64,000 nt of DNA. Origin: an uncultured Planctomycetota bacterium (lineage in GTDB: Bacteria > Planctomycetota > PLA2 > JAEUHO01). The position numbers were made by a program, and so were the translations under genes. Shown piece after piece: positions 22,370-28,939 of this stretch (its first letter is position 1; each line of letters begins with the position of its first letter). The notes under the pieces are model-generated. The model ran no database searches, had not been told where the DNA came from, and worked only from the letters and a program-made list of their open reading frames with translations. The stretch lies in assembly GCA_963752285.1 (NCBI GenBank), contig CAVVXN010000001.1, positions 192,253 through 256,252 of the forward strand, given 5' to 3'.

Positions 22370-22738
22370 TCAGACCGGGGGCGGCTCGTCCGCGGCGCCG
22401 GCGGCTCGTGTCCGCGGGACCTCGCGCGGAGGCGGCTCGGTCGGGGCCGGGCGCGGCGCGTCGCCCTCCGTCGCCTCCGGGGCGGCCGTCGTCTCGCTCG
22501 CCGGCTTCGTCCCGCGGGCGGGCGGCTTCGGCCGCGGCTTCGAAGTCCTCGCGTCGAGCCCTCGGATCTCGTTTCGGAGGGGCGTGGTCGCGTCCTCCAG
22601 GCCCTGCTTGAACTTCGCGTACGACCGACCGAGGTTGTGCATGACCTCGGGAAGCCGACCGCCGAACACGAGGAGGGCGACGAACGCGACGAGGAGGATC
22701 TCCCCGCTTCCCACCGAGAGCATCGCGATCGGCGTCAT
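22370..22738 (-). CDS. tatA: twin-arginine translocase subunit TatA/E with Pro-rich tail
   Basis: GSGEILLVAFVALLVFGGRLPEVMHNLGRSYAKFKQG, a TM helix plus amphipathic helix. The ATG overlaps the upstream stop (ATGA). Confidence 0.85.
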   Translation of the reverse strand: MTPIAMLSVGSGEILLVAFVALLVFGGRLPEVMHNLGRSYAKFKQGLEDATTPLRNEIRGLDARTSKPRPKPPARGTKPASETTAAPEATEGDAPRPAPTEPPPREVPRTRAAGAADEPPPV

Positions 22739-25700
22739 CGGGTCGCGCCCCGGAGGATGATCTCGGTCGGATCGACCTCCTTCAGGTTCCCGGTTTGGAG
22801 ATCGATGACGATGCGGCGCTGGCGGCTCACGATGCTCGGGTTCTCGTCGGGACCGCGCTGGAACGCGAGGTCGCGCGTCCCTTCGCCGGTCAGGATCGCC
22901 ATCGAGTGTACGACGTCGAGTCGGAAGCGGTCGCCCCAGATGCGGATCCGCTTCTCGGCCTGACCGACCTCGAAGACCGTGTGCGGTCCCGAGGCCTCCA
23001 CCTCGCGCACGTCCGCGCCCGCGCGGGACAGGAGGTCGTTCCCCGCCACGGTCAGGCGGTCGGCCCACAGGGTCGCGGGCGCGCCCCAGTCGGCCCCGGG
23101 GGCGCGTCGGACGAGTCGCCGGATCTCGATCGGGCCGTCCGACGTCAGCTCGCGGGGGTTCACCTCGATCGGCGCGCTGCACGTCACGGTGAAGCGCTCC
23201 CAGGTCGAGGCCGCGCGGTCCCGCCGGATCAGGACGGCCACCGCGGGGACGCCCGGCGAGGACGAGGCCTCGAGACGTTCCGGGCCGTTCGTTCCGAGCC
23301 ACAACGTCAACGTCGGGGCCCAGACCTCGTTCCGCGCGTCCTCGGGGCCGAAGATCGCCTGGGCGCGCGGCGTGCCGTCCGCGGTGGCCTCGTGGTGGAC
23401 GGCGTCGTACGCGATGCGCCGGCCCTGGATCGTGCCGTCGGGTCCCTCGAGCTTCGCCTGACCGATGGCCTCGAGGCCGACGAGACCGTTCGCGTCGAGG
23501 CGCGCGGAGAGCCGGTCGGACGTGAGGTCCCAGCGCACGCGCTTCGGCGGCGGCGCGCCGGCCGCGGCGGGGCTGCGCGTGGGCCGCGCACCGCCCCCGC
23601 CCAGGCTCGCGACGCCGCCCAGCGGCGGCGCCGTCGGCTCGAGGACCGTGCGCCGGAGGCTCACCTGCAGCGTGTCGGCCCGGATCTCGTCCACCGCCGT
23701 CGTCGCGGTGGCGAGCTCGGCCCGGACATCCCCTTCGATGCGGATCTCCTGGTCGGCGTCGAGGCGGGGCCGCCGAGGTGACGGCGACAGGCGAGCGCGG
23801 ATCTCGATCCGCCCGCTCGTCGTGACGCCGATGGTCGTGGGCGAGCCGACCTCGGGCGACCGCAGACCGAGGGCCCCGAGGCCGACGGAGCGCGGCGCGT
23901 CCATCGCCACGTAGACCGAGGCCGAGACGCCGCCGTCCGCCGTGACGATGCCTTCGGCCCGTTCGAAGCTCATGGATCGAGCCGCCACGGTGTGGCGCGG
24001 TCCCGACGGATCGCCGACCGCGACGCGCGCGGGCGCCGTACCTCCACCGAGGAGGCGCGCCCGGTCCGAGATCCGGTCGTACGCGAGCGCGGCGCCCTCG
24101 ATCCGCACGGGCAAGCCGACCGTCGCTCCGCCGAACGAGGTCGTCGCGACCACGTCGCCGTCCGCGCGCAGGCTCTGGAGCACCCAGGACTCGCGCTCCC
24201 TCGTCGGCGTGGCGACCCCGTCACCCGTCTTCCCGGCCGCACCCGGTCCGTGGCCGCCCAGCAGGCGCTCGCCGCTCCTCAGTCCGTGGAAGGCGAAGCT
24301 CGTCCCGGGACCTTCCGCGACGACGACCGGCTCGTCGGAGTCGAGGTGCTCTCCGACCAGCCGGTCCGTCGTGCCGCTCATCCGCGTTCCGCCGAGCCGG
24401 ACGTTTCCGAGCAGCGCGAACGAGGTCGCGACGAGACGCTCCCCCGAACCGGCCGGTCCCAGGCCCTCCGGCCGAGTCGTCTGTCCGCCGGTCGGCGGGA
24501 CCTTCTCGAGGAGGAGCGTCAGCTCGTCGCCCTCGAGGCGGTCCCAGTCGTCGGCCAGGCCGACGTCCTCGCGCTCGAGGCGCGCGCCCTTCTCGAGGAC
24601 GATCCTCAGGTAGTCCTCGGGTCGGGCTCCAGGACCGATCTCGACCGGGTCGGGCGTCTCGATCCGGGCCGACTCTTCGGCGCTCGCCCGGAGCGTCCCC
24701 ATGGGCTTCGAGAGCGCGACGCCCTGCAGGGGAACGTCGCCGTGGAGCTCGATGCGCGGCTCACCGAGGAGGATGCTCGTCGCGGTCCCGTCCTCCATCA
24801 CCTCGTGGTGGAGCTTTTGCCCCGCGAGCGAGACGAGGTAGCGACGCCCGCGTTCGGTGACGTCGGGATACTCCACGACGACGCCGCCCTCGGCGTCGAA
24901 CGTGTCGAGGTGCCAGCGCGGCCGCGGCGCGCCCGCGGCCACGACCCCGCGGTGCGCGACGACGAGCGTCCGCTCCGCGTCGAGCGTCCGGCCGCCCTCC
25001 TGCTCCGCGTGGACGTGGTGTTCGAGCGACGCCCGGAGCGTCTCCCGGCCGAACGCCTCCTCCCGCGTCAGGACCGCGCCGCCCTCGGCGGTCACGAAGC
25101 CGGGTTTGAACCCCTCGCCCCCGAACGCGAGGAGGGGCCGCCCGTCGGCGCCCGCGAGGTCCTTGAGGATGCGCAGCGTGACGTCCTTCATCACGTGCAC
25201 CTTCTCGTGGCCGTTGTCGCGCTCGAGCTCGAGGTCGCGGCCGGCGAGCGAGAAGGCCTCGTGCCGCACCTCGAACAAGCCGCGGCCGTGCGCACGGCCG
25301 CGCCCGGGCTCGAGCTCGACCTCCTGGCCCTCGACCGTGATCCCCTCCTCCAGGTCCTGGAGCAGGAATCCGCCCTTCACGGTGAGGGTCGCGTCGCGGG
25401 ACGCGGAGCGCGCCTTGCGGTCCGTGAGGCTCAGCCCTTCGCGGAGCCACTCCGCCTCGGCGAGCGGCGCGACGACGTACCAGCGCAGGATGCGGGCCCG
25501 TGCGCCGGGCCGTCCCTCGATCAGCCCGCGTGCCTCCTCGACCGTGCGCGGCTCCCGGTAGACCGACACGCGCACGTTCACGGCCTGGAGGGCCTGGCGG
25601 TCGCTGGCCCGCGCGCTCGCCGGCCGCACCTCGCGCGCCTCGATCTCCTGGCGCACGAAGTCGGGCACCACGATCGACGCGCCCGTCACCGGGTCGGTCA

Positions 25701-25929
25701 CCTTCACGGGCTCGGGATCGCTCGCGAGCCGGAGGCCCTGCGCGCCGTGGATCGCCACGGGGTCGCCGTTGGGCGGGACGATCCGCGCGCCGGGGTCCGT
25801 GCCCGCGGGGATGTCGGGAACCGACGAGCCCTGCCCCGACGCGCGAGACCGCGCGGGCGCCCACGTCACCGAGTAGAGCACCGCGATCGCGGCGACGTGG
25901 ACGAGCAGGACGAGCGCGAGCCGCCGCAT
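22735..25929 (-). CDS. large secreted protein, possible multi-repeat OstA/LptA-LptC-like
   Basis: Signal or anchor MRRLALVLLVHVAAIAVLY. The 1064 aa are beta-rich with recurring A-D-x-L..(G)xV patterns (IRADTLQVSL, LWADRLTVAGNDLL). It starts 3 nt after kdsC, the position lptC/lptA occupy in the E. coli kdsC-lptC-lptA operon. Confidence 0.5.
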   Translation of the reverse strand: MRRLALVLLVHVAAIAVLYSVTWAPARSRASGQGSSVPDIPAGTDPGARIVPPNGDPVAIHGAQGLRLASDPEPVKVTDPVTGASIVVPDFVRQEIEAREVRPASARASDRQALQAVNVRVSVYREPRTVEEARGLIEGRPGARARILRWYVVAPLAEAEWLREGLSLTDRKARSASRDATLTVKGGFLLQDLEEGITVEGQEVELEPGRGRAHGRGLFEVRHEAFSLAGRDLELERDNGHEKVHVMKDVTLRILKDLAGADGRPLLAFGGEGFKPGFVTAEGGAVLTREEAFGRETLRASLEHHVHAEQEGGRTLDAERTLVVAHRGVVAAGAPRPRWHLDTFDAEGGVVVEYPDVTERGRRYLVSLAGQKLHHEVMEDGTATSILLGEPRIELHGDVPLQGVALSKPMGTLRASAEESARIETPDPVEIGPGARPEDYLRIVLEKGARLEREDVGLADDWDRLEGDELTLLLEKVPPTGGQTTRPEGLGPAGSGERLVATSFALLGNVRLGGTRMSGTTDRLVGEHLDSDEPVVVAEGPGTSFAFHGLRSGERLLGGHGPGAAGKTGDGVATPTRERESWVLQSLRADGDVVATTSFGGATVGLPVRIEGAALAYDRISDRARLLGGGTAPARVAVGDPSGPRHTVAARSMSFERAEGIVTADGGVSASVYVAMDAPRSVGLGALGLRSPEVGSPTTIGVTTSGRIEIRARLSPSPRRPRLDADQEIRIEGDVRAELATATTAVDEIRADTLQVSLRRTVLEPTAPPLGGVASLGGGGARPTRSPAAAGAPPPKRVRWDLTSDRLSARLDANGLVGLEAIGQAKLEGPDGTIQGRRIAYDAVHHEATADGTPRAQAIFGPEDARNEVWAPTLTLWLGTNGPERLEASSSPGVPAVAVLIRRDRAASTWERFTVTCSAPIEVNPRELTSDGPIEIRRLVRRAPGADWGAPATLWADRLTVAGNDLLSRAGADVREVEASGPHTVFEVGQAEKRIRIWGDRFRLDVVHSMAILTGEGTRDLAFQRGPDENPSIVSRQRRIVIDLQTGNLKEVDPTEIILRGATR

Positions 25930-25932
25930 CGG

Positions 25933-26451
25933 TCAGGCACCGCCGAGGGACACGAGGATCTCGTCCCACGCGCCGAGCTGGCGGAGGAGGGTCTCGATCG
26001 CTTCGCGGACCGCGCCCCGGCCGCCGGCCGTGCGACACACGTACGTCGCGACCTTCCGGACCTCCGGGTCTGCGTCGGCCGGCGCGGCGCTGAAGCCCGC
26101 CCGCCGCATCGGCGGGAGGTCCGTCAGGTCGTCGCCCACGTACGCCACGCCTTCCCACGCGAGGCCGGCGCGCTCCCGCAGCCGGTCCACGGCCGCGAGC
26201 TTGTCTCGCGCCCCCTGGACGACCTGTTCGATCCCGAGCTCGCGCGCCCGGCGGTCCACCGCCGGCGAGGAGCGCCCGGTCACGATCGCCGGCACGACGC
26301 CCGCCCGGGCGAGGAGCTGGATCCCCGCGCCGTCCCGGGCGTGGAACGACTTGAGCTCCGACCCGTCCGCGCCGTACGTGATGGTCCCGTCCGTGAGCGT
26401 GCCGTCCACGTCCATGACGAACAGTCGGATCTTCAACGACGGGGCGGGCAC
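25933..26451 (-). CDS. kdsC: 3-deoxy-D-manno-octulosonate 8-phosphate phosphatase (HAD-IIIA)
   Basis: LFVMDVDGTLTDG, ...DG.G, ..VTGR, ..YVGDDLTDLP motifs. No upstream ATG exists, so GTG 26451 (or TTG 26436) was taken as the start. Confidence 0.8.
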   Translation of the reverse strand: MPAPSLKIRLFVMDVDGTLTDGTITYGADGSELKSFHARDGAGIQLLARAGVVPAIVTGRSSPAVDRRARELGIEQVVQGARDKLAAVDRLRERAGLAWEGVAYVGDDLTDLPPMRRAGFSAAPADADPEVRKVATYVCRTAGGRGAVREAIETLLRQLGAWDEILVSLGGA

Positions 26452-26718
26452 GGGCGAACGTCCTCGCGAGGGAGAGAACCGAGATACTAGATCGGCCGGT
26501 CGTGGTCCGGCCCCCGGGATCCGAAGCCCTGGGACCACGAGGGACCCTGCGGGCGGGCGGGGCCCCGGCCCGTAACTCCCGCGTGGGCCTTTGGTTGGGC
26601 CCGGATGGGGCCGCGCGCGGTCCCGGGGCGGCTCGTGCCCGCGCCCCGGACCGGGGCCGCGGACGATCACCGGGCCTCAACACGGGGCGCCAGGGCAAGG
26701 CGGATAGACTCCCGGCCG

Positions 26719-28476
26719 ATGGAGGAGCTCCGCGTCGATCTCGAGACGTTCCAGGGTCCCCTGGACCTCCTGCTCCACCTCGTGCAGCAGGAGGAGGTGG
26801 ATGTCCAGGACGTTCCCCTGGCCCGGGTCGCGGACCGTTTCCTCGAGATCTGCCGGAGCCAGGTCGAGAAGCTCGACGTGGACCAGGCGGGCGAGTACCT
26901 GGTCGTGGCGAGCCAGCTCCTCGTGCTCAAGAGCCGGGCACTCCTGCCGCGCGACACGCCGCTCGACCTCGAGGAGATCGACCCGCGGCTCGACCTCGTC
27001 CGCCAGCTCCTCGAGTACCGCGGCTTCAAGCAGGTGGCGGGCGAGCTGGGCCGGCGGGCGGGAGACGAGGAGCTCCGTGTGCCGGTCCAGGTCGCCACCG
27101 AGCGCGTCCAGGCGGGCGAGGAGGAGCCGGAGCTCGAGGTCGATCTCTATGCGCTCGTCCGCTCGTTCCAGCGGCTCCTGCGCGAGACGGGGGAGGACGC
27201 GGTCGTGGCGGTGCCGCGCGAGCGGCTCCCGATCACGCACTACGTGGAGATCATGTTCGACCGGTTGAGCGCGGCCGGCGGGCGACTCACGTTCACGGAG
27301 CTCCTCGGTGGAGGTCGCGACCGCTCGTACGTGATCGGCGCGTTCCTCGCGCTGCTCGAGCTGATCAAGCTGAGGAAGATCCTCGTCCTCCAGGACGGCT
27401 TCGGCGAGATCCAGATCGAGGTCCGCGAGGACGCGCTCGAGAGCGAAGCGGGCGGGGAGGCCGGCGCCGCGACGCGGGCCATCGAGCAGCCGGAGCTCGG
27501 CGGAAGCGGGCGGCTTCGGCTCGTGTTCATGGGGAGCCCGCGGTTCGCGGTGCCCTCGCTCCAGAGTCTCGTGGGCGCCGGCCTCGCGCCGCAGCTCGTC
27601 GTGGTCCCACCGCCGCGACCGGCCGGGCGCGGGCAGCGGCGCCGCGAGGTGCCCCTCGCCGAGGAGGCCGAGCGGCTCCAGCTCCCGATCCACCGCACGA
27701 GCGACGTGAACGGCCGCACCTCGCGCGAGGCGATCGAGGAGACGACGCCGGACGTGATCGTGACGGCGGGCTTCGGCCAGAAGCTCGGGAGCGCGCTCCT
27801 GAGCCTCCCGCGCCGGAGGTGCGTGAACCTCCACGCGAGCCTCCTTCCGCGCTACCGCGGCGCGAGCCCGATCGTCGCGGCGCTGCGCGAGGGCGCGACG
27901 GAGACGGGCGTCACCATCTTCGTGATGGACGAGGAGCTCGACCGCGGCCCGATCGTCGCGCAGGCCGCCCTGCCGCTCAGAGGCGAGGAGACGTCGGACG
28001 AGGTGGCCGAGGCCCTCTCGAAGCTCGGCGCCGACCTCCTCGTCCGGACGATTCCCGCCTACGTGGACGGCGAGATCGAGCCCCAGCCCCAGGACGCGTC
28101 CCTCGCCACGTACGCGCGGAAGCTCGCGAAGGAGGAAGGGCAGATCGACTGGTCCCGCTCCGCGCGCGAGGTCAAGGACCACGTGCGCGCGATGACCAGC
28201 TGGCCCGGCGCGCAGACCGCGTGGCAGCCCAAGGTGAAGCACGAACCTCTCCCGCTCGTCGTCACGAAGGTCGAGATCGTGAGCGAGGCCGGCGAGGCGT
28301 CCGCGTCGGGGGCCGCGCCCGGCGCGGTGCTCTCGGCCGAGCCGGAGGGCCTGGTCGTGCAGTGCGGCCTCGGGAGGGTGCGCGTCACGCGACTCCGCCC
28401 GACCGGGGGTCGCGACATGGCGGTGAAGGAGTTCCTGAACGCGCGCCGGGTCGTCGCGGGCGACCGGCTGACGTAG
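26719..28476 (+). CDS. single ORF fusing segregation/condensation protein ScpA (N) to methionyl-tRNA formyltransferase Fmt (C)
   Basis: ScpA part: LETFQGPLDLLLHLVQQEEVDVQDVPLARVADRFL ... AFLALLELIKLRKILVLQDGFGEIQIE. An approximately 30-aa linker follows with no stop (checked codon by codon, 27361-27540). Fmt part: LVFMGSPRFAVPSL, VNLHASLLPRYRGASPI, ETGVTIFVMDEELDRGPI. Confidence 0.7.
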   Translation: MEELRVDLETFQGPLDLLLHLVQQEEVDVQDVPLARVADRFLEICRSQVEKLDVDQAGEYLVVASQLLVLKSRALLPRDTPLDLEEIDPRLDLVRQLLEYRGFKQVAGELGRRAGDEELRVPVQVATERVQAGEEEPELEVDLYALVRSFQRLLRETGEDAVVAVPRERLPITHYVEIMFDRLSAAGGRLTFTELLGGGRDRSYVIGAFLALLELIKLRKILVLQDGFGEIQIEVREDALESEAGGEAGAATRAIEQPELGGSGRLRLVFMGSPRFAVPSLQSLVGAGLAPQLVVVPPPRPAGRGQRRREVPLAEEAERLQLPIHRTSDVNGRTSREAIEETTPDVIVTAGFGQKLGSALLSLPRRRCVNLHASLLPRYRGASPIVAALREGATETGVTIFVMDEELDRGPIVAQAALPLRGEETSDEVAEALSKLGADLLVRTIPAYVDGEIEPQPQDASLATYARKLAKEEGQIDWSRSAREVKDHVRAMTSWPGAQTAWQPKVKHEPLPLVVTKVEIVSEAGEASASGAAPGAVLSAEPEGLVVQCGLGRVRVTRLRPTGGRDMAVKEFLNARRVVAGDRLT

Positions 28477-28489
28477 CGAGGAGGGCGCG

Positions 28490-28939
28490 GTGCAGGGCTT
28501 TCAGCGGCTGCTGGTCCCCATCGACTTCTCGGAGGTCTCCGAACCGACGCTCGACATGGCCGTTCGTCTCCTCGCGCCCGACGGCGTCGCGACGCTGCTC
28601 CACGTGGTCGAGTGGCTGCCCGTGGTCACGGAGGGGGCGTTCGGCGTGTATCCCCACCGGCGCGACATCGAGCAGCTGAAGCGGCTCTCGCGCGAGAAAC
28701 TCGAGGCGTACGCGAAGGCGCGTGAGGGGGTGGGCGTCCGTGTGAAGGTGGGCGAGGGGAAGCCCGCGACCGTGATCCTCGAGGAGGCCCTGGCCTTCGA
28801 CCCCGAGCTGATCGTGATCGGCTCCCACGGGCGAAGCGGCCTCGACCACCTCCTGATCGGATCGGTGACCGAACGCGTCCTGCGGAAGAGCGAGACCGCG
28901 GTGCTGGTGGTCCGCGCCCCGGGCACGCCCGCCGCGTAG
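28490..28939 (+). CDS. universal stress protein (UspA family)
   Basis: RLLVPIDFSE and VIGSHGRSGLDHLLIGSVTERVLRKSETAVLVV. GTG start with a GAGGAGGG SD. Confidence 0.85.
   Translation: MQGFQRLLVPIDFSEVSEPTLDMAVRLLAPDGVATLLHVVEWLPVVTEGAFGVYPHRRDIEQLKRLSREKLEAYAKAREGVGVRVKVGEGKPATVILEEALAFDPELIVIGSHGRSGLDHLLIGSVTERVLRKSETAVLVVRAPGTPAA

What the first reader, a model, noticed from the sequence alone, without database searches (positions are those of the whole stretch)
26719..28476. In-frame fusion of the SMC kleisin ScpA with methionyl-tRNA formyltransferase
- Both parts are full length: ScpA is about 264 aa ending ..LVLQDGFGEIQIEVRED, and Fmt is about 317 aa beginning LVFMGSPRFAVP.
- They are joined by an approximately 30-aa Gly/Ala/Glu linker. 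I read every codon from 27361 to 27540 and found no stop.
- These two functions (chromosome condensation and initiator-tRNA formylation) are normally separate genes, and scpB is not downstream.
- Internal starts at GTG 27523 and ATG 27529 could still produce free Fmt. ScpA, however, cannot terminate before the Fmt stop.
Basis: seen in the sequence. Interest (0 to 1): 0.6.

Follow-up and report, generated by a model that had tools for sequence, protein, structure and literature searches.

The report
Conserved ScpA–Fmt fusion gene
In one family of uncultured soil and wetland Planctomycetota, the SMC ring-closing protein ScpA and the enzyme that formylates initiator tRNA (Fmt) are made as a single 585-residue protein; this real, inherited fusion was probably born when two overlapping neighbour genes lost their shared stop/start signal, and databases label it only as Fmt.

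Summary
ATG 26719 to TAG 28476 is one open frame of 585 codons:
- a complete ScpA (residues 1-238),
- a disordered acidic linker of about 28 residues,
- a complete Fmt (267-585) with its catalytic Asn/His/Asp intact.

It is not an assembly error. All 29 species genomes of the same family carry the fusion: 26 have it full length and uninterrupted, and 3 are cut by contig ends. About 100 protein clusters from independent metagenomes carry it too.

In the sister family (11 genomes) scpA and fmt are adjacent but separate. Five of the ten junctions read share the 4-nt overlap ccGTGAag. Removing 2 nt there gives ...P-K-L-V-F-F-G, which matches the fused junction G-P-R/K-I-V-F-M-G.

A tree places all fused sequences in one clade (100/100), so the fusion arose once. 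No second scpA exists in these genomes, and apart from two bins no second fmt. smc, scpB and def are present but unlinked.

No start codon is conserved upstream of the first Fmt strand, so Fmt depends on the ScpA start.

A search of 1.84 billion representative proteins found no independent ScpA-Fmt fusion. Four text searches found no paper describing it.

Whether the fusion has a function beyond co-expression is unknown. I rate it a new domain architecture built from two ordinary families, of moderate interest.

The parts
26719..28476 (+). Whole scpA-fmt fusion CDS (585 codons plus TAG)
   Evidence: Uninterrupted frame. Orthologues at 53-73% identity in all family genomes have no internal stop.
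26719..27432 (+). ScpA (kleisin) module, residues 1-238: N-terminal helical domain, a disordered middle region aligned to the ScpB-binding part of ScpA, and a C-terminal winged-helix domain
   Evidence: Pfam PF02616 covers 21-234, profile 1-230/232, E 1.8e-28. PDB ScpA chains 3w6j_A (5-156), 4i98_A and 3zgx_C (1-80) match. The AF2 secondary-structure pattern H172-185/E189-191/H192-195/H202-217/E221-225/E231-235 is consistent with a winged helix. Mean identity across 59 fused proteins is 64%.
27433..27516 (+). Acidic, poorly conserved linker, residues 239-266
   Evidence: pLDDT is below 50 over 245-262. Measured over residues 236-266 in 59 proteins: length 29-46 aa (median 32), net charge -6.7, 29% identity, and every length change is in frame. 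Only a weak D-x-A-A-x-x-L-D-x-x-E pattern is present.
27517..28476 (+). Fmt (methionyl-tRNA formyltransferase) module, residues 267-585
   Evidence: TIGR00460 scores 235.3 bits against a cut-off of 201.5. E. coli Fmt 1fmt_A residues 3-313 align at E 1.6e-59. The model superposes on Fmt crystal structures at target-normalised TM 0.92-0.94 and rmsd 1.6-2.4 A. pLDDT is above 90.
27826..27834 (+). Codons for catalytic Asn370 and His372 (N-L-H of the NLHASLLPRYRG motif)
   Evidence: They align with E. coli N108/H110 (residue numbering from my knowledge of E. coli Fmt). Both are invariant in 59 fused proteins.
27940..27942 (+). Codon for catalytic Asp408
   Evidence: It aligns with E. coli D146 (residue numbering from my knowledge of E. 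coli Fmt) and is invariant in the 59 fused proteins.
27505..27537 (+). Fusion junction and first Fmt strand (G-R-L-R-L-V-F-M-G-S-P), including GTG 27523 and ATG 27529
   Evidence: In most family members this reads G-P-R-I-V-F-M-G: 48 of 59 have G-P-x. No start codon is conserved upstream of the strand; only 8 of 23 have one within 14 codons. M271 is invariant.
28490..28939 (+). Downstream universal stress protein gene, 13 nt after the fusion stop, preceded by GAGGAGGG
   Evidence: Pfam Usp, E 6.7e-34. It is found next to the fusion in 21 of the 23 fused-family loci searched, one of those hits cut by a contig end.
25933..26400 (-). Divergent upstream HAD phosphatase gene (KdsC-like)
   Evidence: Pfam Hydrolase_3/HAD. 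It is found next to the fusion in 19 of the 23 fused-family loci searched, two of those hits cut by contig ends, and in no sister-family locus fetched.

Best explanation
This is a genuine, vertically inherited gene fusion. It encodes one polypeptide that carries the cell's only ScpA and its only Fmt.

Origin (inferred). In the common ancestor of one family of uncultured Planctomycetota, a translationally coupled scpA-fmt pair lost its shared stop/start signal. That pair still exists in the sister family, where the stop and start overlap as ccGTGAag. The most economical event is a 2-nt deletion in the overlap, which turns ...Pro-stop plus Met-Lys-Leu-Val-Phe into ...Pro-Lys/Arg-Ile/Leu-Val-Phe. 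The flexible acidic tail of about 30 residues that ScpA already carried became the linker.

Translation (shown from sequence). Fmt has no conserved start of its own, so it is translated from the ScpA start.

Function of the two halves. Shown from sequence: both halves remain under purifying selection and keep their defining features. Inferred: each does its ordinary job. The ScpA half bridges the SMC dimer through its N-terminal domain on the neck and its winged helix on the head cap, and binds ScpB. The Fmt half formylates Met-tRNAfMet while hanging from the winged helix on a disordered tether, or as unassembled fusion protein.

Meaning of the fusion (inferred). The fusion itself is most likely a tolerated, near-neutral event that fixes 1:1 co-expression, not evidence that the two pathways are mechanistically linked.
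For: Continuity and domains:
- One open frame holds a complete ScpA and a complete Fmt.

Distribution:
- The order holds 40 species genomes. All 29 of family f1 carry the fusion: 26 full length without a stop and 3 truncated only by contig ends.
- All 11 genomes of family f2 lack it. In 10 of them the two genes lie adjacent in the same order; the eleventh locus is cut at a contig end.
- About 100 clusters at 90% identity, from JGI, ENA, NCBI and Logan assemblies, have all three Pfam domains.
- A maximum-likelihood tree of ScpA+Fmt puts the fused sequences in one clade (100/100) and the unfused in another (100/100).

Junction:
- Of the ten f2 junctions read, five have the 4-nt [A/G]TGA overlap and ScpA ends in Pro in all five. 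Removing TG in silico gives ...P-K-L-V-F-F-G.
- Of the 59 fused proteins, 48 read G-P-x before [ILV][IV][FLYM]-M-G, and 2 read G-P-K. L017 reads ggt ccg aag atc gtc.
- Unfused f2 ScpA is 249-269 aa (one is 313), which equals the fused ScpA plus linker.

No independent Fmt start:
- Only 8 of 23 have any ATG/GTG/TTG within 14 codons upstream of the first strand, and none is positionally conserved.

Both halves constrained:
- ScpA is 64% identical, Fmt 58% and the linker 29%. All linker length changes are in frame.
- N370, H372, D408 and G303-R304-G305 are invariant.

Structure:
- Fmt has pLDDT above 90 and TM 0.92-0.94 to solved Fmt. The linker has pLDDT below 50, and pTM is 0.57, as expected for two domains on a tether.

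Sole copies and partners:
- The own genome has no second scpA or fmt, only a weak formyltransferase hit at E 1.3e-11.
- scpB, smc and def are present elsewhere.
- The ScpA architecture (winged helix on the head cap, N-domain on the neck, ScpB in the middle) is taken from PMC4442127.
Against: - There is no protein-level evidence. No cultured member, proteome or transcript data were available, so the size of the mature product is unknown.
- The 2-nt deletion is an inference. It rests on comparing present-day junctions, and other small indels could give similar results.
- In the clade containing the window itself the junction is R-L-R rather than G-P-R, so it has diverged further.
- M271 is invariant in the fused family but is F or L in the sister family. 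That could hint that this ATG has a use.
- Two family bins (G042, G044) also hold a stand-alone Fmt at 41-42% identity, either from contamination or as a true paralogue.
- The genome is 89% complete, so a second copy in the own genome cannot be strictly excluded.
Confidence: 0.8

Rival explanations
1. The fusion is functionally meaningful. Tethering Fmt to the SMC head through the kleisin would recruit formylation to the nucleoid, couple the amounts of the two proteins for regulation, or use the bulky Fmt domain to modulate SMC head engagement or loading.
For: - The fusion has been kept without exception through a family-level radiation, with identity down to 53%.
- Linker length is narrowly distributed: 54 of 59 lie within 30-33 aa. 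The linker carries a weak conserved D-x-A-A-x-x-L-D-x-x-E pattern.
- Even before the fusion, scpA and fmt were translationally coupled in the sister family.
- Earlier unchecked notes of this scan report another tRNA enzyme (CCA-adding) fused to ScpA, and trpS next to scpA, in other phyla.
Against: - No known pathway connects SMC complexes with initiator-tRNA formylation.
- Once Fmt lost its own start, the fusion could not be undone without losing the only Fmt, so persistence needs no benefit.
- AF2 gives no sign of a fixed interface: pTM is 0.57 and the linker is disordered.
- The architecture arose only once among 1.84 billion representative proteins.
- None of 43 fmt loci from other phyla has scpA within 6 kb.
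Confidence: 0.1
2. The gene is fused but the cell still makes two proteins. Either the polypeptide is cleaved in the exposed acidic linker, or ribosomes also start internally at the invariant ATG 27529 (or GTG 27523) to give free Fmt.
For: - The linker is disordered and exposed, so it is a plausible protease target.
- M271 is invariant in 59 of 59 fused proteins, while the sister family has F or L at that position.
- Planctomycete genes often lack Shine-Dalgarno sequences (my general knowledge), so the absence of one does not exclude initiation.
Against: - A product starting at M271 would lack the R-I-V-F strand that opens the Rossmann fold, which aligns to E. coli Fmt residues 4-8.
- GTG 27523 is present in only about half of the orthologues, and no start upstream of the strand is conserved.
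- The linker holds no conserved cleavage-like motif.
- F-M-G-T/S-P is a common Fmt motif, for example in Bacillus anthracis 4iqf, so Met at this position needs no special explanation.
Confidence: 0.12
3. The fusion is an artefact: a sequencing or assembly indel in this metagenome-assembled genome removed the scpA stop.
For: - The genome is a MAG.
- Public short-read contigs of the same organism were too shallow (about 3x) and stopped before the junction, so no direct read check was possible.
- Some other assemblies of this family do show frameshifted gene calls (P0106, P0108).
Against: - The same uninterrupted frame occurs in 26 other species-level genomes and in about 100 protein clusters from independent projects and assemblers.
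- The linker differs in length among them, always in frame.
- Fmt lacks any start of its own in these genomes.
Confidence: 0.01

Closest known systems
Canonical ScpA kleisin of the bacterial Smc-ScpAB complex (Bacillus/Geobacillus; PDB 3w6j, 3zgx, 4i98)
   Same: - There is a full-length match to the SMC_ScpA profile.
- The N-terminal helical domain is homologous to the SMC-neck-binding and ScpB-binding pieces that have been crystallised.
- The C-terminal region is predicted as a winged helix.
- smc and scpB are present in the genome.
   Different: - The C-terminus does not end after the winged helix. It runs on through a linker of about 28 residues into a 319-residue enzyme.
- scpB is unlinked, whereas many bacteria have it directly downstream of scpA (my general knowledge).
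- Scores stay below the cut-offs of the lineage-specific NCBIfam ScpA equivalog models.
Stand-alone methionyl-tRNA formyltransferase (E. coli Fmt, PDB 1fmt/2fmt; TIGR00460)
   Same: - It has both domains, the catalytic Asn/His/Asp, and the Arg-containing insertion loop.
- It scores above the equivalog cut-off.
- The model superposes on solved Fmt at TM 0.92-0.94.
   Different: - It has no start codon of its own; the first strand follows directly on the linker.
- It is not next to def, which is the usual neighbour in many bacteria (my general knowledge). def lies on another contig.
Def-Fmt fusion proteins (P0169, 508 aa; P0233, 485 aa, from the representative library)
   Same: The upstream neighbour gene is fused to the N-terminus of a complete Fmt. 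This shows that Fmt tolerates N-terminal fusions.
   Different: In those proteins the partner is peptide deformylase, which belongs to the same pathway. Here the partner is a chromosome-organisation protein with no known link to formylation.
Formyltransferase-domain fusions such as ArnA, 10-formyl-THF dehydrogenase and the LgrA F domain
   Same: The same formyltransferase fold is joined to another module in one chain.
   Different: - Those formyltransferase domains are paralogues acting on sugars, folate or peptidyl carriers, and they sit at the N-terminus.
- Here a true Fmt orthologue sits at the C-terminus of a non-enzymatic partner.
CCA-adding-enzyme::ScpA fusion noted earlier in this scan (Acidaminobacter; unchecked AI note)
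   Same: A kleisin ScpA is covalently joined to a tRNA-acting enzyme, derived from neighbouring genes.
   Different: The partner, the phylum and probably the end of ScpA that is fused all differ. I did not verify it here.

Membership tests
ScpA (SMC_ScpA, PF02616), kleisin of Smc-ScpAB | End-to-end match to the family profile above the curated cut-off | tested here: met
   100.5 bits against a cut-off of 24.6; profile positions 1-230 of 232 at residues 21-234.
ScpA (SMC_ScpA, PF02616), kleisin of Smc-ScpAB | N-terminal helical domain homologous to the SMC-neck- and ScpB-binding region | tested here: met
   phmmer hits to 3zgx_C (residues 1-80, E 8.3e-18), 3w6j_A (5-156, E 3.1e-24) and 4i98_A (6-131).
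ScpA (SMC_ScpA, PF02616), kleisin of Smc-ScpAB | C-terminal winged-helix domain | tested here: met
   The profile covers the C-terminal part. The AF2 secondary-structure order over 172-235 is consistent with a winged helix, at pLDDT 75-85. No direct structural superposition on a ScpA winged helix was obtained.
ScpA (SMC_ScpA, PF02616), kleisin of Smc-ScpAB | Partner subunits SMC and ScpB encoded in the same genome | tested here: met
   ScpB: 167 bits at G000:C5:1190534-1191010, and present in 40 of 41 relatives. SMC hinge: inside a 1236-aa frame at C5:1464411-1464731.
ScpA (SMC_ScpA, PF02616), kleisin of Smc-ScpAB | NCBIfam ScpA equivalog cut-off (NF000995 and relatives) | tested here: not met
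   154.7 bits against a cut-off of 315. The ScpA models listed are numbered sub-models of PRK00104 with high cut-offs, so I read this as distance from those models, not as absence of ScpA identity.
ScpA (SMC_ScpA, PF02616), kleisin of Smc-ScpAB | Physical bridging of the SMC neck and cap, and binding of an ScpB dimer | not testable with these tools
   Needs pull-down, cross-linking or complex structure prediction.
Fmt (methionyl-tRNA formyltransferase, TIGR00460) | Equivalog score above the curated cut-off over the whole model | tested here: met
   235.3 bits against a cut-off of 201.5; model positions 2-308 of 315.
Fmt (methionyl-tRNA formyltransferase, TIGR00460) | Catalytic Asn-His-Asp (E. 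coli N108, H110, D146) | tested here: met
   N370, H372 and D408 align with the E. coli residues and are invariant in 59 fused proteins. The E. coli residue numbers come from my knowledge of that enzyme.
Fmt (methionyl-tRNA formyltransferase, TIGR00460) | Fmt-specific insertion loop with the Arg used in tRNA recognition, and a C-terminal beta-barrel domain | tested here: met
   - PRPAGRGQRRR aligns with E. coli PDRPAGRGKKL, and G303-R304-G305 are invariant.
- PF02911 scores 76 bits.
- The whole Fmt part superposes on 2fmt_A and 4iqf at TM 0.92-0.94.
Fmt (methionyl-tRNA formyltransferase, TIGR00460) | Formylation of Met-tRNAfMet | not testable with these tools
   Needs an enzyme assay or complementation. 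Indirect support: it is the only fmt found in the genome, and def is present.
Evolved gene fusion (as opposed to a sequencing artefact) | The same continuous frame in independent assemblies, with separate orthologues in an outgroup | tested here: met
   26 full-length uninterrupted copies among 29 family genomes, and about 100 metagenomic clusters. The genes are separate and adjacent in the sister family. The fused sequences form one clade at 100/100 support.

The most novel reading that the evidence does not exclude
The kleisin-Fmt tether has a function. Every SMC ring in these bacteria would carry an initiator-tRNA formyltransferase at its head. This could place formylation at the nucleoid or origin region, or let the 35-kDa domain tune head engagement or loading.

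Earlier unchecked notes report ScpA fused or adjacent to other tRNA enzymes (CCA-adding enzyme, TrpRS). Taken with those, the fusion could point to an unrecognised link between bacterial condensin and the tRNA/translation-initiation machinery.
Probability: 0.08. Interest if true: 0.75.

Novelty: new variant of a known kind. Interest (0 to 1): 0.42.

Why it matters
1. Annotation. Public records call these proteins only 'methionyl-tRNA formyltransferase'. Genomes of this family therefore appear to lack the essential kleisin of Smc-ScpAB, and pathway or completeness analyses would wrongly score ScpA as missing.

2. Gene-fusion mechanism. This is an unusually clean natural example of how a fusion is born from a translationally coupled pair. 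The extant sister family still shows the GTGA overlap, and the fused junction still carries its trace.

3. SMC biology. It is a natural experiment showing that the C-terminus of the kleisin winged helix, which sits on the SMC head cap, tolerates a permanently attached 35-kDa globular domain over long evolutionary time.

4. A cheap test. If the tether turned out to matter functionally, it would connect chromosome organisation with translation initiation. That is unlikely but inexpensive to test.

Tried and rejected
- Read support at the junction. The public runs holding this organism are soil metagenomes kept as Logan contigs at about 3x depth. The contigs laid on 27200-27700 end at 27346 and 27362, before the linker, and the wetland runs hold only relatives. 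The check was uninformative, and conservation across assemblies replaces it.

- Assembly artefact. Rejected on the distribution.

- Reversion or exceptions inside the family. The three apparent partial hits (G008, G018, G044) are genes cut by contig ends. P0106 and P0108 are frameshifted gene calls in other assemblies.

- Conserved internal start for Fmt. None was found upstream of the first strand.

- Genus g20 of the sister family as the direct intermediate. It has an in-frame stop, one codon, then ATG. The tree nests it inside the unfused clade, and the fused junction keeps no Met before the first strand, so the 2-nt deletion in a GTGA overlap fits better.

- Independent ScpA-Fmt fusions elsewhere. 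None appears among the top 150 of 1.84 billion representatives; the long hits are Def-Fmt fusions or Fmt with other extensions. No scpA lies within 6 kb of fmt in 43 loci from other phyla.

- Literature. The searches 'ScpA + formyltransferase + fusion' and 'methionyl-tRNA formyltransferase + kleisin' gave nothing relevant.

- The longer ORF start at ATG 26605. Rejected because orthologues align from ATG 26719.
Full report
**Observation**

The window holds an open frame at 26605..28476 on the + strand. Read from ATG 26719 it gives 585 residues with no stop until TAG 28474-28476. ATG 26719 is the real start. In 19 of 23 orthologues the aligned codon is ATG or GTG, while the upstream in-frame extension is not conserved.

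- Pfam finds SMC_ScpA at residues 21-234, covering profile positions 1-230 of 232, then Formyl_trans_N (292-445) and Formyl_trans_C (468-576).
- NCBIfam's Fmt equivalog TIGR00460 matches residues 267-580 at 235.3 bits, above its cut-off of 201.5.
- The NCBIfam ScpA equivalog models match end to end but stay below their high cut-offs.

The only correction is that the folded ScpA ends near residue 238, and residues 239-266 are the linker.

**Is it real?**

The window is G000:C1:192253-256252 of a 4.6-Mb, 5-contig, 89%-complete genome. Named records of close relatives are uncultured Planctomycetota or Planctomycetia MAGs, and the runs that hold the sequence are soil and wetland metagenomes.

The GTDB order holds 40 species genomes.
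- All 29 of the window's family (f1, 16 genera) have the fusion. 26 are full length with no internal stop, at 53-73% identity. The other three (G008, G018, G044) are cut by contig ends.
- A search of 5.8 billion clustered proteins returns about 100 clusters with all three Pfam domains, from JGI, ENA, NCBI and Logan assemblies. Where named, they are called only 'methionyl-tRNA formyltransferase'.

An indel artefact in this one assembly is therefore excluded. A direct read check was attempted, but the public contigs of this organism are about 3x deep and stop before the junction.

**Origin**

In the sister family f2 (11 genomes) the two genes are separate. In the 10 genomes where both could be read they lie adjacent in the order scpA then fmt.
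- Five of the ten junctions read share the 4-nt overlap [A/G]TGA (for example ctgccGTGAagctcgtc). This is the classic arrangement for translational coupling.
- Two junctions have spacers of 5 and 49 nt.
- Genus g20 has an in-frame stop, one codon, then ATG.

The unfused ScpA proteins are 249-269 aa (one is 313) and already carry a proline- and acid-rich tail of about 30 residues. That length equals the fused ScpA plus linker.

A maximum-likelihood tree of ScpA+Fmt separates a fused clade and an unfused clade, each at 100/100 support, so the fusion arose once. Genus g20 nests inside the unfused clade and is not the direct intermediate.

In all five overlap junctions ScpA ends in Pro, and Fmt begins M-K/N/S-(L/T/V)-.... 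Removing the TG of the overlap in silico yields ...P-K-L-V-F-F-G in one frame. The fused family reads G-P-x-[ILV]-[IV]-[FLYM]-M-G in 48 of 59 proteins (42 G-P-R, 2 G-P-K). One locus reads literally ggt ccg aag atc gtc. A 2-nt deletion that destroyed stop and start together is thus the most economical origin. This is inference, not proof.

Outside this order:
- One other planctomycete family keeps scpA and fmt 552 nt apart, with a thioredoxin-like ORF between them.
- The other four phylum members sampled have the two genes apart.
- None of 43 fmt loci from other phyla has scpA within 6 kb.

**Anatomy and constraint**

I aligned 59 fused proteins.

| Region | Mean identity to the query |
|---|---|
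| ScpA half | 64% |
| Fmt half | 58% |
| Linker | 29% |

- Linker length, measured over residues 236-266, ranges from 29 to 46 aa, with 54 of 59 at 30-33 aa. Every length change is in frame.
- The linker's net charge averages -6.7, and it carries only a weak D-x-A-A-x-x-L-D-x-x-E pattern.
- Invariant residues are spread over both halves. In Fmt they include N370, H372 and D408, which align with the catalytic N108, H110 and D146 of E. coli Fmt. They also include G303-R304-G305 of the tRNA-recognition loop.

AlphaFold2 on this alignment gives the following.
- The Fmt half has pLDDT mostly above 90.
- The ScpA half has pLDDT 60-85, with the expected disordered middle segments (120-140, 160-169).
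- The winged-helix-like region is 172-235.
- The linker falls below 50 over 245-262.
- pTM is 0.57, as expected for two domains on a flexible tether.

The Fmt part superposes on solved Fmt structures (4iqf, 5uai, 2fmt, 1fmt) at target-normalised TM 0.92-0.94.

**Can Fmt be made on its own?**

Only 8 of 23 orthologues have any ATG, GTG or TTG within 14 codons upstream of the first strand, and none is positionally conserved. GTG 27523 is present in about half.

The invariant ATG 27529 (M271) lies inside the strand motif V-F-M-G. A product started there would lack the strand that opens the Rossmann fold (the alignment to E. coli residues 3-8 is). Met at this position is common in Fmt generally, for example in B. 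anthracis 4iqf.

The sister family has F or L there, so I record the invariance as an unresolved detail. Cleavage within the exposed linker cannot be tested here.

**Genomic setting**

- The fusion is the only scpA and the only fmt in the genome. The second-best hit is a weak formyltransferase at E 1.3e-11.
- Across the family, second hits are of the same weak kind, except for a stand-alone Fmt at 41-42% identity in two bins, G042 and G044.
- scpB (C5:1190534-1191010), smc (a 1236-aa frame around C5:1464411-1464731) and def (C5:1948542-1948982) are all present and unlinked. ScpB is found in 40 of 41 relatives.
- Locally the gene is flanked by a divergent KdsC-like HAD phosphatase and, 13 nt downstream, a universal stress protein gene. 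Both neighbours recur next to the fusion in most family loci searched (21 and 19 of 23) and in no sister-family locus fetched.

**Mechanism proposed**

Shown:
- One gene, one frame, both domains intact and constrained.
- Fmt lacks its own start.
- The partner genes are present elsewhere in the genome.

Inferred: the protein acts as ScpA in the Smc-ScpAB ring. Its N-domain sits on the neck of one SMC, its winged helix on the cap of the other head, and ScpB binds in the middle (architecture from PMC4442127). The Fmt domain hangs from the end of the winged helix on an acidic tether of about 30 residues and formylates Met-tRNAfMet. Protein not assembled into rings can do the same.

The fusion was probably tolerated because ScpA already ended in a flexible tail and because Fmt accepts N-terminal fusions. 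Def-Fmt fusions exist in the representative library. Once Fmt had lost its start, the fusion could not be undone without losing the only Fmt, so persistence alone does not prove a benefit.

**Comparison and novelty**

Each half is an ordinary member of a well-known family. The architecture is not ordinary.
- Among 1.84 billion representative proteins, the only full-length ScpA-Fmt hit is the representative of this same family (P0076). The other long Fmt hits are Def-Fmt fusions or Fmt with other extensions.
- Full-text searches found no paper describing the fusion.
- Earlier notes of this scan record the same fusion in another genome, consistent with my distribution data. They also record a CCA-adding-enzyme::ScpA fusion and a trpS-scpA adjacency in other phyla. 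I did not check those and treat them only as a lead for the speculative reading that kleisins and tRNA enzymes are linked.

**Verdict**

This is a real, single-origin, family-wide fusion of ScpA and Fmt, a new domain architecture of known parts. It is most likely a near-neutral product of translational coupling. Interest is moderate, mainly for three reasons:
- annotation, because ScpA is hidden under the Fmt name;
- the unusually legible way the fusion arose;
- evidence that the kleisin C-terminus at the SMC head tolerates bulky cargo.

Noticed in passing
L022 (G028), L023 (G032), L024 (G031): scpA-fmt junction: In genus g20 of the sister family the scpA stop (TGA or TAG) is in frame with fmt, separated from its ATG by one codon (ctcTGAaggATGcgg). 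A single stop-codon read-through or point mutation would give a second, independent ScpA-Fmt fusion.
   Followed up: partly
G042:C106:3916-4851 and G044:C153:3094-4035: Two bins of the fused family also hold a stand-alone Fmt at 41-42% identity to the fused Fmt half. The bins are 70% and 88% complete with 2-3% contamination. This could be contamination or a true second copy.
   Followed up: no
window 27529-27531 (M271): The Met of the V-F-M-G strand motif is invariant in all 59 fused proteins, whereas the unfused sister family has F or L at that position. It may simply be a lineage trait, or the ATG may have some use.
   Followed up: partly
P0169 (508 aa) and P0233 (485 aa) from the representative library: These are peptide deformylase-Fmt fusion proteins (Pep_deformylase + Formyl_trans_N + Formyl_trans_C). 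Their source organisms were not looked up.
   Followed up: partly
P0106 and P0108 (other assemblies of the same family): The gene calls run into Arg/Ser/Pro-rich nonsense part-way through the fusion. These are frameshift errors in those assemblies, not split genes.
   Followed up: partly
window 25933-26400 (-), 28490-28939 (+): The arrangement of a divergent KdsC-like phosphatase, then scpA-fmt, then usp recurs in most fused-family loci searched (kdsC in 19 and usp in 21 of 23) and in no sister-family locus fetched. The usp start follows the fusion stop by 13 nt and has a GAGGAGGG Shine-Dalgarno sequence, so the two genes are probably co-transcribed.
   Followed up: partly
L032 (G039:C123:143000-147400): In another planctomycete family, scpA and fmt are 552 nt apart with a thioredoxin-like ORF (…WCGPCK…) between them. 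This suggests the scpA/fmt neighbourhood is older than the order.
   Followed up: no
window 22735-25929 (-): A 1064-aa ORF lies directly after the KdsC-like gene. I did not examine it.
   Followed up: no
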